Virus record (IMG/VR): IMGVR_UViG_3300025765_000001 | Source of the DNA: a virus | Lineage: Duplodnaviria > Heunggongvirae > Uroviricota > Caudoviricetes | Reading direction: 5' to 3' (one strand) | Length of the DNA: 64,000 nt | Shown here: one piece after another, positions 3,618 to 40,238 of the stretch | Layout: each line of letters starts with the position of its first letter | Numbering within the stretch: position 1 is the stretch's first letter | Notes under the pieces: generated by a model | The model's input: only the letters and a program-made list of their open reading frames with translations | Databases searched by the model: none | What the model was told of the DNA's origin: nothing | Made by a program: the position numbers and the translations under genes

Positions 3618-4392
3618 ATGAAAGCTGGCGAGATGAAGCAGGGATTGTAGCCATCGAGCAAGACAAAATACAAATCAGGCGTTTCGTGAACTCGGTTTTG
3701 AGAGCATCCCAAGCCAACTTTACATCCGAACCCCTGGTCGCTACAATACGACCATCGGCGTTGCCCAACTCACCTTGTCAAAAAGGCGTTACTCATGCAC
3801 ATGCACTTTCAAGTTCGGGCGTCCGGTAAGTGGCTGTTTCCGAAGTTCTTTCAGTGCCTCTTCGACGCCAAAGGAACCGCCCTTGAAGGCAAACCTGAGC
3901 AAGTCGTGCCCATGTTCGACCACTGTGTTGATACGCTCCAAGACCTCAAACAGACCCAGAATCAGCACGTCAACAAGCTCATGAATCTCTTCTGGATGCT
4001 TGTCGATAACAAGGTCACGCCCGCCGCTCTCATGGAACCCGAAGGCATTAAAAGTCTTTTCATGGCCTTAAGGGACGTGCGGCATCCATTTCTGGGCAGA
4101 AATCAAACCAGACCTCTACATGCAAATGGACGGTCTAGTTTTCAACGCCTCCGCTGCCGCCGACTTCGCAAACAACCAGCTAGGCAAATATACCCCGCTG
4201 CGGAACACCGCATACGAGGCCGAATTCCTCCTCTACATGCTCAGCAAACCCAAGGCGGGGTTTCAGCCTAACGTCTGGCAAACCGAAACCCTCAACCGGA
4301 TGCCCAAGGGACTAGACTCCCTGCCCGCTGAGGCTAGATATAAACTACGCCCGTTCCAAGAACACGACTTCGATCAATACTACAAGGGGTAA
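3618..4392 (+). pseudogene. frameshifted hypothetical gene
   Basis: RBS+ATG at 3618, protein-like reading continues across frames (3795..4271, then 4120..4392). Confidence 0.5.
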
Positions 4393-4394
4393 TC

Positions 4395-4634
4395 ATGATC
4401 CGCATCGCTTTCCGAAAAGACAAATTCTTGATTTTTCTCGGAGCCGACGACGAAGCCGAGTTGCACCAGACGGCAACGCTCGAAGGGGCCATCGTCCACG
4501 CCGCCAGGGAATGCGTTGTCATCGGACAGCGACTCGGCAAACCCAAGGCTATCCCACTCGTTATCGACCCCAGCGTGGCTAAACACTTCGCCACTCAGGG
4601 CTTCGACGGCGACCCCACGTTCAAAGATAAGTGA
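4395..4634 (+). CDS. hypothetical protein
   Basis: 79-aa ORF abutting previous stop. Confidence 0.6.
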   Translation: MIRIAFRKDKFLIFLGADDEAELHQTATLEGAIVHAARECVVIGQRLGKPKAIPLVIDPSVAKHFATQGFDGDPTFKDK

Positions 4635-34819: not shown

Positions 34820-36061
34820 CTAAACCTTGCTCCCTGCGAGCAGTTCTTGCAGGGAGACTTCGCCTCGGAGTTTTTCGCTCCGACACCAGATGTTGCCAAC
34901 AAACTCTTTTAGGTCTGCCAGACGAACCTGTAATCCTGTGAGGACGACTTCAACATTGTCGTTCAGATGCTTCCACATTGACCATGAATGTACTTTGCGA
35001 TTTCGGTACTTTTCTGCAAGAGTTCCCAAAACCAGTTCTTTCACTTTCTTTGCGTCAGCCTTATAGAATGACAACTTCTCGTTGTACCCAAGACCACGCC
35101 GACCTATCACGAAGGCGGCTGACTCATGGATACTTGTCTTGTGCATCCACCTGTACTTGTACTTGCCAATGATACTGGTGAACGCTGGATTTACTTTCTC
35201 GTACTGGATGCCGTTCTCCACACACTTGCGTTCCAGCAAAGTGATGAACTTCTTCCAGACAAAGTTGCTCTGCTTTCTCTTCCTCTTCTTGCTACCAACC
35301 TTGTCCTTGTCAAACTTCAAGTCCTCAAAAACGATCCCCTTGCCACGCTCCAGAGCGTAGCCGATGACCTTCTTGACCAAACAGCCAATGTCGTAGTTCC
35401 GCTTCTCCCTGCTGCCGTAAAGGATACGGTTGTTGATGAATGTCTCGGTAGCGACCAAGTTACCGTCTGCGGCTACATCAGCCACGGCGATACGATCAGG
35501 GTTCGTATCCACGCCGATGACGCCGTTCTTGAAGGTCGTGGTGACTGGCGGCTCATCCACCTGAAAGTCAATAATGACCTTGAAGTGCGTCTCATCCTTC
35601 CTTTTGAGCCTGACGTTGTACGCCTGCCCACTCGCCAGCATGATCTTCAACTCCTGCTGGTATTTGTCCGGCACAAACAACTTAAACGTCGCCCACTTCC
35701 TCGTCCCAACGGTGATGCGGAGCGTATCGTCTACGATCCTGATGTTGAGGTTGCCCTTCTGCGTCTTGTCGCCACGACAATAGATTTGGCTGTCTCGCCT
35801 CTTCAACCACTCGTCTTTCGTGATCGCACCGGCTTTCATGTCTTCCCATGCTTTACGACCACCGAAAACTACTTTTTTGCCTTTGAGTCGGGTGTTGTAC
35901 GCTTGAGCCTGAACTACGGCGTCGGATACCTGTCTGGTGTTCAACATCTGGTACTTGGCTTTTGCAGCCTTCCGCACGTCGTTGAACTCAAGTTTATTCT
36001 TTGAGAACCGACAGTACGAGAAGCGGACGCAGGACTGGAAATCTCTGATGAGTTGATCCAG
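34820..36061 (-). mobile_element. tnpB: IS200/IS605-related TnpB-like RuvC protein (Zn-finger-less subtype), 5'-truncated
   Basis: GVDTN (RuvC-I), VFEDLKF (RuvC-II), VNPAFTSIIG, HESAAFVIGRRGLG; frame open upstream (LDQLIRDFQSCVRFSY) without ATG; no tnpA nearby. Confidence 0.85.
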
Positions 36062-38045: not shown

Positions 38046-38600
38046 TCAATCCCGAATAATTGCGATTTTGCGTTCTGGCCTCATTCCGATAGTGTACCGT
38101 TCGGAGCATACATGATCGCAGTGAGCGAAGAGCTTCACCGTGAACTTAATTATATCAGGATGGGGTTGGTCATTGATAGAGAGAATTCTACCGATCAAGT
38201 GTATGCCTCGTTCGGCTTCTTCGTTGTGAATGGCAATCGTGATGATGTCGTTGACCAGGGTATTCGCCGCCATATCAATCAGTATTTTCATCAGCATCTC
38301 CTTCCGTGAGTACCCTTTTCCTGATGAGATGGGCCGTAGTTCAACACCGTGCCCAGGATCGGGCCGTTTGATAGTGCGTGGCTTGGGAAGGGGTTCGGGC
38401 TGGGTGACTTTTCTATAGCCGAGACTCACCAGAACTTCAAAGATTTCACTCCAGGTGGGGAAGGATCGGCGGTTGTTCTCCTTGTATTGTTGCATGGCGT
38501 TCATGAATACCAATTCTTCGTCTGTGTATTCCGGCTCGCCTGTAGCAGGATGGGGTTTTTGCGGTCCATTGCATCTCCTCCGAGAGAAGTGATCTCGCAT
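38046..38600 (-). CDS. protein with Planctomycete-type conserved domain
   Basis: YTDEELVFMNAMQQYK....RSFPTWSEIFEVLVSLGYRK. Confidence 0.7.
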   Translation of the reverse strand: MRDHFSRRRCNGPQKPHPATGEPEYTDEELVFMNAMQQYKENNRRSFPTWSEIFEVLVSLGYRKVTQPEPLPKPRTIKRPDPGHGVELRPISSGKGYSRKEMLMKILIDMAANTLVNDIITIAIHNEEAERGIHLIGRILSINDQPHPDIIKFTVKLFAHCDHVCSERYTIGMRPERKIAIIRD

Positions 38601-38640
38601 AGATTATATCAAGACATGCACATAATTGTACTCCAGAAAT

Positions 38641-38678
38641 GAAAAAGGCCCCGACCTCTCTAACCTAGAGGCCGGGGC
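38641..38678 (-). terminator. intrinsic terminator ending the ncRNA
   Basis: GCCCCGGCCTCT/AGAGGTCGGGGC stem + TTTTT on minus strand. Confidence 0.8.
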
Positions 38679-39331
38679 GGTATTGGGCAGGCGTTATGCG
38701 AGGCTGCAAGCATTCTCCGTTTAATCCGCACTGTGAGTCTGACATCGCCAGTGTGTTACCATTACACCACCCCCTCAGTAGTAGTAGTTGGGCGAAAGTG
38801 AGGGAGATCGAAATTGAATCGACATCCCGGCGAGCTTTGTTTTTAAGTGCGAACCTCGATTTCGCAGCCCTGCCCTGAGTTTAACCTAGAGTGATAGCTT
38901 GACACTGCGTTTCCAGTGAGATGTAACGAGGCTTATGACGCCCCGTTGCCTTCCAATCAGCCACCCCACGATAAGGGTTGAGGGAACAATCCGTGTTCCA
39001 CAGCACCGTTCAGAGTGCCAGTCTATATCATTAGACGCTCAACCTTTCGAGACTATCCTAGTCTCTGCGGCCTTCCGTGGTTGCCATCCGTAGACTTCAC
39101 CATCCTTGGTATGAGCATCCTCGCTCATTTGGGTTTGTGCCTGTCCTGGCCGAGCCATCCAACGCTCGCCGTTGAGCAATACCTTCCTTGGAAACGGTGG
39201 CCTTCCTAGCTCTACAAACCCTGCTCTCCAAAGCAGTCGTGGGGGCAGGAATCGAACCTGCATATTCACCACACCAAAATGAAACTAAGCCTAAGCCTGT
39301 CACTCAATACACACTTGTCAGTGTGCTTCCC
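38641..39331 (-). ncRNA. large structured ncRNA with two circularly permuted tRNA-like domains and a GGA-hairpin insert
   Basis: T-arms at 39245-39261 and 38807-38823, each followed by acceptor strands and then D-arms; long-range stems; no convincing ORF; 5' end approximate. Confidence 0.8.
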
Positions 39332-39497
39332 TAAAATATCGTCCTTCGCCGAACTGTCTATAGTAATTTGCCAAGATCGGCGAATTGTTGTTTTGTTAGG
39401 GCTGGCGGCTGCCGCCGCCAGCCCCAGAGTCTAAGAATCCAAAGGCCCGTCCTCCCTCAGATTCTTCGACTCACAGATACGTCCAGGCCCACTCGAC

Positions 39498-40238
39498 CTA
39501 GACGGCTGTTCTTGTGATGAAGTCCCAGATTTCACGACCGATCTTGACCGGCGTGACATTCAGTTGGTTCGCCTCCTCACGAGCGGACTTCACCGCCTCG
39601 ATCAGTTGACGAACACGAGCCAACATCAGGTTTTTCTTTTGTACGGGAATCGCCCCGCTGAACTTGATCGTGGTCCATTCGCCGATCTTCACGTCTTCCG
39701 TGAAGACCTCGACCTGGGCTGGATGCTTGTCGGTCGCCTCGGCCTTGACGTGGTTCTTCATCACCTTCTTGGTCTTGTTGGAGGTCGAAGGCTCCGACTT
39801 GAAACACGCCGCCGCTTCATCCCACTTCCAGGTCTCGGCGAGGTCCAGCGTTGGTAGATGCGAAAGGAAGGTCTGGATGTCCACCAACTGCTTCTCAAGG
39901 AACATCAAATGCGTCACCGGCACCTGTTCCTTGATGACCTTGCCATCTACCTTGATGTCCGCCTTGGCTTCGCAGTTGGCATAATCCTGCGTAGCCGTGC
40001 AGTCAAGTAGATCGGTCATCACTTCCGAGAAGGCGTCGATGGCCTCCTTGAGGCTATATTGAATGTTTTTCTTCTCTGGCGGAAACGTCTCGCCGTCCTC
40101 GTTCAAAGGACGATACGTGCGGGTCAGGCCGTCGAACAGCGAGGCCTTCTGGATTTGCTTGTAGATCAAGTCCCGCTCCTTCTTCAAGCGAGACTTCTTC
40201 CCCGTCGTCACGGCTACTATCTGGCACAGCTTCGCCAT
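39498..40238 (-). CDS. conserved uncharacterised protein (recalled as DUF7873-like), candidate partner of the downstream RNA
   Basis: MAKL.QIVAV..G, G..RTY.P..EDGE..PPE, VPVT.L.FLEKQL, AEATDKHPAQV, FSGA.P, AVK.AREEAN. Confidence 0.8.
   Translation of the reverse strand: MAKLCQIVAVTTGKKSRLKKERDLIYKQIQKASLFDGLTRTYRPLNEDGETFPPEKKNIQYSLKEAIDAFSEVMTDLLDCTATQDYANCEAKADIKVDGKVIKEQVPVTHLMFLEKQLVDIQTFLSHLPTLDLAETWKWDEAAACFKSEPSTSNKTKKVMKNHVKAEATDKHPAQVEVFTEDVKIGEWTTIKFSGAIPVQKKNLMLARVRQLIEAVKSAREEANQLNVTPVKIGREIWDFITRTAV

What the first reader, a model, noticed from the sequence alone, without database searches (positions are those of the whole stretch)
38972..39236. CsrB/RsmZ-like GGA-hairpin sponge inserted into the acceptor stem of tRNA-like domain A
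Seen: the 265-nt insert has 12 GGA on the minus strand versus 2 on the plus. Many sit in short hairpin loops: ACCA-AGGA-TGGT, ATGAGC-GAGGAT-GCTCAT, GAGACTA-GGA-TAGTCTC, GGAACA-CGGAT-TGTTCC, CTGCT-TTGGAG-AGCAG. Others are CAAGGAAG, TACGGATG, CACGGAAG, CCAGGACA and CTAGGAAG. Known: CsrA/RsmA binds A(N)GGA in hairpin loops and is titrated by multi-site sRNAs, and Planctomycetota encode CsrA homologs. Inference: a phage CsrA sponge carried on a stable tRNA-like scaffold. It could derepress host mRNAs, or the GAGGA-containing leaders of the phage's own array.
Basis: partly seen in the sequence, partly recalled or inferred. Interest (0 to 1): 0.85.

Follow-up and report, generated by a model that had tools for sequence, protein, structure and literature searches.

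The report
Phage GGA-hairpin decoy in tRNA-like RNA
A giant phage of Planctomycetota-like hosts has added a 265-base array of hairpins to a widespread tRNA-like RNA; the hairpins show the docking motif of the regulator CsrA, which the phage also encodes twice, so this is probably a virus-borne CsrA decoy, though binding is untested.

Summary
Window 38972-39236 (minus strand) has 12 GGA against 2 on the plus strand. Eight of the 12 sit in loops of short local hairpins, 13-27 nt apart. The raw count is only modestly above shuffles (p 0.014-0.04). GGA in minimum-free-energy hairpin loops is far above them (5 observed, mean 1.06, 0 of 300 shuffles). Density and loop display match E. coli CsrB and CsrC scored the same way.

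The piece is a lineage-specific expansion of the loop that closes the acceptor stem of a circularly permuted tRNA-Met-like domain. That domain belongs to a roughly 690-nt RNA that follows the DUF7873 gene in many bacterial phyla and phages. At least one such unit was found in 143 of 160 loci, and the loops there are mostly 4-38 nt.

One related phage contig (L010) has a 179-nt version with 9 GGA, 8 of them in hairpin loops, with compensatory stem changes. The phage encodes two CsrA homologs, and Planctomycetota genomes carry up to 17.

The CsrA-decoy reading is therefore the best supported (about 0.55), but binding, release and target are untested. It has no homology to known Csr/Rsm RNAs, and four other csrA-carrying phages lack the insert. 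This scan has flagged smaller phage CsrA-hairpin modules on other DNA.

The parts
38972..39236 (-). The 265-nt GGA-hairpin insert: an expanded loop closing the acceptor stem of domain A. It has 12 GGA, 8 of them in local hairpin loops. It ends in a conserved three-way junction at about 39044-38976.
   Evidence: Absent from bacterial and most phage homologs. Present as a 179-nt version in L010.
39099..39112 (-). Hairpin UACCA-AGGA-UGGUG. It contains CAAGGAUG, an exact published CsrA recognition motif.
   Evidence: the motif is quoted in bioRxiv 10.1101/2025.07.22.666180
39111..39128 (-). Hairpin AUGAGC-GAGGAU-GCUCAU. Its L010 counterpart is GGGC-GAAGGAU-GCCC.
39051..39067 (-). Hairpin GAGACUA-GGA-UAGUCUC. 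Its L010 counterpart is CCGCUA-GGA-UAGCGG, with compensatory stem changes.
38982..38998 (-). Hairpin GGAACA-CGGAU-UGUUCC inside the conserved three-way junction. Its L010 counterpart is GAAC-ACGGAU-GUUC.
39237..39261 (-). Domain A: T arm GCAGG-UUCGAUU-CCUGC (39261-39245), 3' acceptor strand CCCCACG (39244-39238) and discriminator-like A39237.
   Evidence: (Rfam tRNA model positions 9-63, 20.4 bits, below threshold)
38927..38971 (-). Domain A: U38971, 5' acceptor strand CGUGGGG (38970-38964), U8-G9, D arm, and an anticodon-like arm with CAU at 38937-38935.
   Evidence: ARAGORN calls tRNA-Met(CAU) in 20 of 20 in-silico re-permuted joins.
38752..38823 (-). Domain B: T arm GUCGA-UUCAAUU-UCGAU, acceptor strands CUCCCUC / GAGGGGG closed by a 22-23-nt loop, then a D arm. 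This is the YrlA-like order.
38648..38678 (-). Intrinsic terminator ending the RNA: 12-bp stem followed by a U run.
39333..39360 (-). Promoter-like site (TAGACA, 16 nt, TATTTT) just upstream of the RNA. A matching TGGACA, 16 nt, TATCCT lies at the same place in L010.
39498..40238 (-). DUF7873 gene (246 aa), the conserved upstream partner of the RNA.

Best explanation
The 265-nt piece is a multi-site decoy for CsrA-family RNA-binding proteins. A lineage of giant phages added it to the acceptor-stem loop of a permuted tRNA-Met-like domain of the DUF7873-linked RNA.

Shown: it displays about eight A(N)GGA motifs in loops of short hairpins spaced 13-27 nt apart. This is the architecture by which CsrB, CsrC and RsmX/Y/Z titrate CsrA dimers. 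The phage supplies two CsrA paralogs, and likely Planctomycetota hosts supply one to many.

Inferred: transcription starts at its own promoter-like site near 39333-39360, or reads through from DUF7873, and stops at the terminator at 38648-38678. The array then sequesters CsrA (viral, host or both) and so changes translation or stability of CsrA-controlled mRNAs during infection.

Inferred: because the array hangs on a 7-bp acceptor stem with U at -1 and A after the stem, RNase P and a 3' tRNA-processing nuclease may cut it free as a discrete small RNA. If not cut, the compact tRNA-like fold would serve as a stable handle.
For: 1. Twelve GGA on the transcribed strand against 2 on the other. Five lie in minimum-free-energy hairpin loops, against a shuffle mean of 1.06 (0 of 300 reach 5). 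Eight of 12 lie in local hairpins.
2. E. coli CsrB and CsrC scored by the same script give similar values. Densities are 6.0 and 5.7 GGA per 100 nt, against 4.5 (window) and 5.0 (L010). Minimum-free-energy loop counts are 9/22 and 4/14.
3. Nine of 12 motifs in the window and 7 of 9 in L010 read A(N)GGA, and GGAU dominates. One site contains CAAGGAUG, a published CsrA motif.
4. Site spacing is 13-27 nt in the window and 15-30 nt in L010. From recalled knowledge, one CsrA dimer bridges two sites 10-63 nt apart, best near 18 nt (Mercante 2009).
5. L010 comes from another sample and its DUF7873 is 89% identical. Its insert is 179 nt with large indels, yet 8 of 9 GGA are in hairpin loops. At least three homologous hairpins keep the loop while their stems change on both sides. 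Fold z-score is -5.2.
6. The phage encodes CsrA1, which aligns without gaps to E. coli CsrA over 58 residues and keeps L2, L4, R6, V40, V42, H43 and R44. It also encodes a divergent CsrA2.
7. CsrA is found in 58 of 151 Planctomycetota genomes, at up to 17 copies.
8. The insert is dispensable for the scaffold. At least one permuted unit was found in 143 of 160 homologous loci, with loops mostly 4-38 nt, and the closest insert-free relatives have 6-9 nt. So the insert is an added function.
9. M. smegmatis YrlA has the same T arm / 7-bp acceptor hairpin / D arm order. It is cut by RNase P and receives CCA (PMC4201824).
Against: The raw GGA count is only marginally above composition-matched shuffles (p 0.014-0.04). 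The piece is G- and A-rich.

There is no significant match to any Rfam Csr/Rsm model; the best is CsrC at 10.4 bits, E=2.

Conservation rests on two sequences only. No further relatives were found.

Four other large viral records carry both DUF7873-RNA and csrA but have 17-22-nt loops. Planctomycete chromosomes rich in csrA also lack the insert. So csrA content does not predict it.

By the crude local-hairpin rule, four other windows of the phage genome score 7-8, mostly in stretches with long stop-free frames. That rule alone is therefore not specific.

Four of the 12 GGA are partly paired in the minimum-free-energy fold.
Confidence: 0.55

Rival explanations
1. The insert is a structural expansion or a docking platform for some other protein (a phage factor, or a partner of the DUF7873 ribonucleoprotein). 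The GGA-containing loops serve tertiary contacts or another reader, not CsrA.
For: The acceptor loop of this RNA family varies in length, with loops of 59-131 nt in a few members that lack GGA arrays. The insert folds into a closed multibranch domain with a conserved three-way junction that carries few GGA. DUF7873 has no known fold or function, so unknown partners are plausible. Four csrA-carrying phages lack the insert.
Against: No other known protein family reads arrays of A(N)GGA hairpin loops at about 18-nt spacing (recalled knowledge). What is kept between the two phages is the GGA loop, while the stems and the number of hairpins change. That pattern fits a repeated linear motif better than a fixed 3-D architecture. 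DUF7873 partners in 143 loci do without the insert.
Confidence: 0.22
2. The insert is an inert or selfish intervening sequence: cargo or a remnant of a mobile insertion in a permissive loop, removed or tolerated without a function of its own.
For: In L072 the same acceptor loop holds a 607-nt insertion that encodes an HNH homing endonuclease. The ORF is 186 aa; Pfam HNH E=3e-15, HNH_repeat E=2e-11. So the loop is a landing site for foreign DNA. The 7-bp acceptor stem could let tRNA-processing enzymes remove anything placed there.
Against: There is no ORF conserved between the window and L010, and the indels are not multiples of three. No intron or ribozyme family matched. There are no matches elsewhere in the phage genome, in 401 Planctomycetota genomes or in phage collections, so it is not a repeated mobile element. 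Fold energy and loop-GGA counts are far from random, and the hairpins show compensatory changes.
Confidence: 0.12
3. The GGA-rich hairpins mimic Shine-Dalgarno sequences and titrate 30S subunits or the 16S anti-SD tail, rather than CsrA.
For: GGA is the core of the SD sequence, and the piece is purine-rich.
Against: Only 1 of 12 motifs reads GGAG and none reads GGAGG. GGAU (6) and GGAA (4) dominate, as in CsrA sites, and the motifs are held in small hairpin loops.
Confidence: 0.05
4. The region encodes a small protein (the 77-aa or 68-aa ORF at 39039-39303, minus strand) and the GGA bias is a codon effect.
For: Two ORFs with GTG starts overlap the insert.
Against: They run across the T arm and acceptor strand. 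The L010 homolog differs by indels of 5, 17, 34 and 28 nt, which destroy any frame. No start context was identified.
Confidence: 0.02

Closest known systems
CsrB/CsrC (Enterobacteria) and RsmX/RsmY/RsmZ (Pseudomonas) CsrA-sequestering sRNAs
   Same: Many A(N)GGA motifs at 4.5-6 per 100 nt, mostly in loops of short hairpins spaced 13-30 nt apart. A cognate CsrA gene is in the same genome.
   Different: No sequence or covariance-model homology. Encoded by a virus of a non-proteobacterial host. Not a free-standing gene with its own terminator, but the loop of an acceptor stem inside a roughly 690-nt tRNA-like RNA. Control by a GacA/UvrY-type promoter was not examined.
YrlA-type bacterial Y RNAs (Chen et al. 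2014, PMC4201824)
   Same: The scaffold has the YrlA order of T arm, acceptor stem closed by a loop, then D arm. M. smegmatis YrlA, which has a 7-bp acceptor stem, is cut by RNase P and receives CCA.
   Different: The scaffold lies next to DUF7873, not Ro60. The phage TROVE gene is about 228 kb away. There are two domains in tandem. Domain A keeps a full anticodon arm and is opened at the variable loop. No Rfam family matched. No YrlA is known to carry a cargo domain in the acceptor loop.
Phage-encoded csrA genes (Sobrero and Valverde 2020, PMC7366521: 30 of 2517 phage genomes)
   Same: This phage also carries csrA, in two copies.
   Different: That survey describes protein genes only. No virus-borne multi-site sponge RNA was found in the paper library.
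3'ETS-leuZ sponge of E. coli and tRNA-flanked small RNAs such as MALAT1-mascRNA (recalled knowledge, not checked here)
   Same: A regulatory RNA whose ends would be made by tRNA-processing enzymes acting on an adjoining tRNA or tRNA-like fold.
   Different: Those pieces lie beside a normal tRNA fold, not inside the acceptor loop of a permuted one. 3'ETS-leuZ sponges base-pairing sRNAs, not a protein. Processing is only inferred here.
Circularly permuted tRNA genes of Cyanidioschyzon merolae and two-piece (permuted) tmRNA genes (recalled knowledge)
   Same: The 3' half (T arm and 3' acceptor strand) lies upstream of the 5' half, with an intervening segment closing the acceptor stem.
   Different: Here the intervening segment is 265 nt and carries its own motif array. 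There is no alanine identity pair (U3-A70). ARAGORN finds no tmRNA here. The phage has a separate standard tmRNA.

Membership tests
Csr/Rsm CsrA-sequestering sRNAs | Multiple GGA motifs at high density on the transcribed strand | tested here: met
   12 in 265 nt (4.5 per 100 nt) and 9 in 179 nt in L010 (5.0). CsrB scores 6.0 and CsrC 5.7 by the same script.
Csr/Rsm CsrA-sequestering sRNAs | GGA presented in loops of short hairpins, in A(N)GGA context | tested here: met
   8/12 (window) and 8/9 (L010) lie in local hairpins. Minimum-free-energy loop counts are 5 and 6, against shuffle means of 1.06 and 0.82 (0 of 300). A(N)GGA context in 9/12 and 7/9.
Csr/Rsm CsrA-sequestering sRNAs | Homology to a described family (Rfam CsrB, CsrC, RsmX, RsmY, PrrB_RsmZ and others) | tested here: not met
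   No match at gathering score. The best at E<=10 is a 28-nt local CsrC match: 10.4 bits against 61 needed, E=2.
Csr/Rsm CsrA-sequestering sRNAs | A CsrA protein available in the same system | tested here: met
   Two phage CsrA genes (90.7 and 55.6 bits to PF02599). CsrA1 aligns to E. coli CsrA without gaps. Host phylum: 58 of 151 genomes.
Csr/Rsm CsrA-sequestering sRNAs | Direct high-affinity binding and titration of CsrA | not testable with these tools
   Needs EMSA, ITC or CLIP. No RNA-protein modelling tool and no RNA-seq were available.
Csr/Rsm CsrA-sequestering sRNAs | Free-standing small RNA gene with its own terminator | tested here: not met
   The array is embedded between the two acceptor strands of domain A. 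The only terminator is 290 nt further downstream. Release by processing is inferred only.
YrlA-type Y RNA | tRNA-like module in the order T arm, acceptor stem-loop, D arm | tested here: met
   Both domains have this order. T and acceptor stems covary in 38 family members, with 11 of 12 pairs showing compensatory changes. Caveat: those members were picked by requiring pairing.
YrlA-type Y RNA | Encoded next to a Ro60 (TROVE) gene and bound by it | tested here: not met
   The neighbour is DUF7873 in all loci. The phage TROVE gene lies at genome 153 kb, against 381 kb for the RNA. Binding is not testable here.
tRNA | Cloverleaf with acceptor, D, anticodon and T arms | tested here: met
   Domain A only: after in-silico re-permutation ARAGORN calls tRNA-Met(CAU) in 20 of 20 joins. 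Domain B fails.
tRNA | Contiguous 5'-to-3' gene order with free acceptor ends | tested here: not met
   ARAGORN finds no tRNA in the window. The Rfam tRNA model reaches 20.4 bits against 29 needed, on a partial match. The halves are permuted and joined by the insert.

The most novel reading that the evidence does not exclude
A giant phage runs a self-contained Csr circuit. It brings two CsrA paralogs and a multi-site CsrA sponge. The sponge is carried as cargo in the acceptor loop of a permuted tRNA-Met mimic and is released by the host's RNase P and 3' tRNA-processing enzymes. If so, tRNA maturation capacity would gate when CsrA is titrated during infection. This would be the first viral Csr-type sponge, the first Csr sponge for the Planctomycetota lineage, and the first tRNA-like 'cargo slot' RNA.
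Probability: 0.3. Interest if true: 0.85.

Novelty: new variant of a known kind. Interest (0 to 1): 0.72.

Why it matters
CsrA is a global translation regulator, and its sponge RNAs are known almost only from Proteobacteria. How the many CsrA paralogs of Planctomycetota, or the csrA genes carried by about 1% of phages, are controlled is unknown. A virus-borne array of CsrA-type hairpins next to viral csrA genes would show that phages can import both halves of the Csr switch.

Its position inside a processable tRNA-like stem suggests a new way to make a regulatory RNA with defined ends.

It also marks the acceptor loop of the widespread, undescribed DUF7873-linked tRNA-like RNA as a cargo site, because a homing-endonuclease gene sits at the same spot in another member. 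This gives an experimental handle on that RNA family.

Tried and rejected
- Rfam at gathering score on the whole window, and at E<=10 on 38400-39600: no family. Only sub-threshold tRNA (20.4 bits) and CsrC (10.4 bits) fragments.
- ARAGORN on the window: no tRNA or tmRNA.
- blastn of the whole RNA against 50,697 phage records: no match.
- Exact-pattern scans for two stretches conserved between the window and L010, in IMG/VR and JGI metagenome contigs: nothing.
- blastn of the insert against 401 Planctomycetota genomes: only chance 22-nt hits, so no host sRNA source was identified.
- The closest phage relative in JGI (L006, 87% protein identity) ends at the DUF7873 stop codon, so its RNA is not available.
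- DUF7873 structure: a confident model (pLDDT 84) has no Foldseek match in the PDB. VIA-align gives only background-level helical matches (Z<=9.4), and no paper mentions the family.
- Rfam around the phage TROVE gene: no Y RNA.
Four csrA-positive giant phages and csrA-rich planctomycete genomes have short loops.
- Other windows of the phage genome that are rich in GGA hairpins mostly lie in stretches with long stop-free frames and were not pursued.
- The coding and Shine-Dalgarno-mimic readings were rejected on indel pattern and motif spectrum.

Full report
**What is in the sequence**

On the minus strand, an ORF-poor stretch of about 850 nt lies between the DUF7873 gene (39498-40238) and the next ORF (38046-38600). 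It has a promoter-like site at 39360-39333 and a strong intrinsic terminator at 38678-38648.

It contains two tRNA-like units in permuted order.
- Domain A: T arm 39261-39245, 3' acceptor strand CCCCACG 39244-39238, and A39237. Then come the 265 nt under study (39236-38972). After them lie U38971, the 5' acceptor strand CGUGGGG 38970-38964, U8-G9, a D arm, and an anticodon-like arm reading CAU.
- Domain B (38823-38752): the same order, with a 22-23-nt loop.

ARAGORN and Rfam find no standard tRNA or any known family. When the two halves of domain A are rejoined in tRNA order in silico, ARAGORN calls tRNA-Met(CAU) in 20 of 20 junction variants. The minimum-free-energy fold closes the insert with the acceptor helix.

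**Checking the observation**

The insert has 12 GGA on the minus strand and 2 on the plus strand.
- Against shuffles of the same 265 nt, the raw count is only modestly high: p=0.014 for mononucleotide and p=0.038 for dinucleotide shuffles.
- Against all 265-nt windows of the 64-kb window, it is at the maximum; 0.04% reach 12.

The stronger signal is how the motifs are presented.
- Eight of the 12 lie in loops of local hairpins with 4-7 bp stems.
- Five lie in hairpin loops of the minimum-free-energy fold. Dinucleotide shuffles give a mean of 1.06, and none of 300 reached 5.
- Successive motifs are 13-27 nt apart, apart from one 59-nt gap and one 7-nt pair.
- Nine of 12 read A(N)GGA, and GGAU and GGAA dominate.
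- One site contains CAAGGAUG, quoted as a CsrA recognition motif in bioRxiv 10.1101/2025.07.22.666180.

As a positive control I scored E. coli CsrB and CsrC, taken from NC_000913, with the same script. They have 6.0 and 5.7 GGA per 100 nt, with 9/22 and 4/14 in minimum-free-energy hairpin loops. The insert has 4.5 per 100 nt and 5/12.

Across the whole 436-kb phage genome, a crude local-hairpin rule puts the insert in the top ~0.05% of windows. Four other windows score as high; most of them lie in stretches with long stop-free frames. That rule alone is therefore not specific.

**What the scaffold is**

DUF7873 is a highly conserved protein of unknown function. It has 1575 homologs in the near-length search, at about 50% identity across phyla. 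It occurs in Planctomycetota, Actinomycetota (Streptomyces, Nocardia), Chloroflexota, Cyanobacteria and others. It also occurs in hundreds of viral contigs and in cultured phages such as Gordonia phage GodonK, Arthrobacter phage Mimi and Pseudanabaena phage PA-SR01. It is always annotated as hypothetical.

In 143 of 160 loci examined, at least one permuted tRNA-like unit follows the gene within about 100 nt, and 93 loci show two.
- Gimesia aquarii and two other bacterial loci show the same RNA, with shared motifs and a terminator.
- In GodonK the gene lies inside the tRNA array, with about 500 unannotated nt after it.
- The T and acceptor helices covary: 11 of 12 pairs show compensatory changes in 38 members. 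Those members were selected by requiring pairing, so this is supportive rather than independent.

The order T arm, acceptor stem-loop, D arm is that of YrlA Y RNAs. M. smegmatis YrlA, which has a 7-bp acceptor stem, is cut by RNase P and receives CCA in vivo (PMC4201824). This RNA is nevertheless not filed as a Y RNA. Its partner gene is DUF7873, not Ro60. The phage's TROVE gene is about 228 kb away, with no Rfam Y RNA beside it. DUF7873 gave a confident model with no informative fold match, and no paper mentions it.

**The insert is a lineage-specific addition**

Across the family, the loop closing the acceptor stem is mostly 4-38 nt, with a few of 59-131 nt. The closest insert-free relatives (DUF7873 65-68% identical) have 6-9 nt.

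Only one other sequence carries a long GGA-rich insert. This is L010, a 2.3-kb contig from a different sample whose DUF7873 is 89% identical.
- Its insert is 179 nt, counted with the base after the stem, and differs from the window's by several large indels.
- It has 9 GGA. Eight are in hairpin loops with 4-9 bp stems, at 15-30 nt spacing.
- It folds far better than shuffles (z=-5.2).
- Homologous hairpins keep the loop while the stems change on both sides:
  - GAGACUA-GGA-UAGUCUC against CCGCUA-GGA-UAGCGG
  - AUGAGC-GAGGAU-GCUCAU against GGGC-GAAGGAU-GCCC
  - GGAACA-CGGAU-UGUUCC against GAAC-ACGGAU-GUUC
- A three-way junction at the 3' end of the insert is conserved.

Indels that are not multiples of three rule out a conserved reading frame.

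**CsrA in the phage and in likely hosts**

The window lies in a 435,946-bp IMG/VR virus record. That record carries about 63 tRNA genes and a tmRNA.

It encodes two CsrA homologs.
- CsrA1 scores 90.7 bits to PF02599. It aligns without gaps to E. coli CsrA over 58 residues and keeps L2, L4, R6, V40, V42, H43 and R44.
- CsrA2 is a divergent 63-aa protein scoring 55.6 bits.

The nearest DUF7873 relatives are planctomycete. Four planctomycete genomes that carry the RNA hold 5-11 CsrA paralogs each. Of 151 sampled Planctomycetota genomes, 58 have CsrA, some with 8-17 copies.

Phage csrA genes are already described, in 30 of 2517 phage genomes (PMC7366521). A virus-borne multi-site sponge was not found in the paper library. 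Earlier agents of this scan have flagged smaller CsrA-type hairpin modules in other phages on other DNA. I did not test those.

**Most likely mechanism**

Shown: a transcribed-strand array of about eight loop-displayed A(N)GGA motifs at CsrB-like density and spacing. It is kept with covarying stems in a related phage. It was added to a scaffold that works without it elsewhere, in a genome that encodes canonical CsrA.

Inferred: the array binds CsrA dimers, viral and/or host, and titrates them. This would shift translation of CsrA-controlled messages during infection.

Also inferred: the 7-bp acceptor stem, with U at -1 and A after the stem, could be cut by RNase P and a 3' tRNA-processing nuclease. 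That would release the array as a discrete RNA of about 265 nt and leave a two-piece tRNA-Met mimic. If it is not cut, the tRNA-like fold acts as a stable handle.

The loop tolerates other cargo. L072 has a 607-nt insertion at the same position that encodes an HNH homing endonuclease.

**Evidence against, and rival readings**

- There is no homology to known Csr/Rsm RNAs. It may work like them but is not a member.
- The insert does not track csrA. Four of ten other large DUF7873-carrying viral records encode CsrA yet have 17-22-nt loops, and csrA-rich planctomycete chromosomes also have short loops.
- No host sRNA resembling the insert was found in 401 Planctomycetota genomes.

Rival readings:
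- a platform for another protein or a purely structural expansion (0.22)
- inert or selfish intervening sequence (0.12)
- Shine-Dalgarno mimic (0.05; only one GGAG and no GGAGG)
- small protein (0.02)

**Verdict**

It remains unproven, so I rate it partly supported, with 0.55 confidence in CsrA-family binding. I class it as a new variant of a known kind: a Csr-type multi-site decoy in a viral, non-proteobacterial setting, embedded in a tRNA-like scaffold. Interest is 0.72.

Noticed in passing
window 38640-40238 (-); L009:4001-5340; L008:154-1330; L177:2501-3735; 160 loci L011-L090 and L097-L176: DUF7873 plus a downstream RNA with two permuted tRNA-like domains is a widespread, apparently undescribed module. 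It occurs in Planctomycetota, Actinomycetota, Chloroflexota, Cyanobacteria and many phages. In Gordonia phage GodonK it sits inside the tRNA gene array, and the RNA is unannotated.
   Followed up: partly
L072:3814-4421 (ORF 3857-4417 +): In this viral contig the acceptor loop of domain A holds a 607-nt insertion encoding a 186-aa HNH homing endonuclease (Pfam HNH E=3e-15, HNH_repeat E=2e-11). The same loop is therefore a landing site for mobile cargo.
   Followed up: partly
genome G000:C1 240884-241039 (+) and 249140-249295 (-) (L004, L005): The phage has two csrA genes about 8 kb apart. One is canonical (about 65 aa from the MMLVLSRK start). The other is a divergent 63-aa form with a 5-residue insertion in the first beta hairpin.
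   Followed up: partly
genome G000:C1 about 153053-154978 (+) (L003:1231-3156): The phage encodes a 641-aa TROVE-domain (Ro60-like) protein. No Rfam Y RNA was found in the 3 kb around it, so its RNA partner is unknown.
   Followed up: partly
genome G000:C1 12-18 kb, 165-191 kb and 100789-101150: ARAGORN finds 64 genes in the 436-kb record: about 63 tRNAs in arrays, and a tmRNA with tag GETPAYRMAA. None lies in this window.
   Followed up: no
L007:5010-5050 versus L008:1165-1310: Two assemblies of the same bacterial locus differ by a deletion of about 140 nt. It removes the 5' acceptor strand, the D arm and the tail of domain B in the MAG contig. This is either an assembly artefact or a natural deletion variant.
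   Followed up: no
window 34820-35977 (-): A 385-aa ORF has a weak Cas12f1-like TNB domain match (25.5 bits, just under the cut-off), suggesting a TnpB-like gene.
   Followed up: no
Planctomycetota genomes G075, G100, G003: Some planctomycete genomes carry 11-17 CsrA paralogs, an unusually large expansion for which no antagonist RNAs are described.
   Followed up: no
window 39290-39300 (-); L010:1755-1780: A loosely 6-nt-periodic tract (AGGCUU AGGCUU; longer in L010) precedes domain A. Part of it pairs with the conserved AAGCUAUCACUC stretch downstream of the anticodon-like arm, forming the helix that closes domain A.
   Followed up: no
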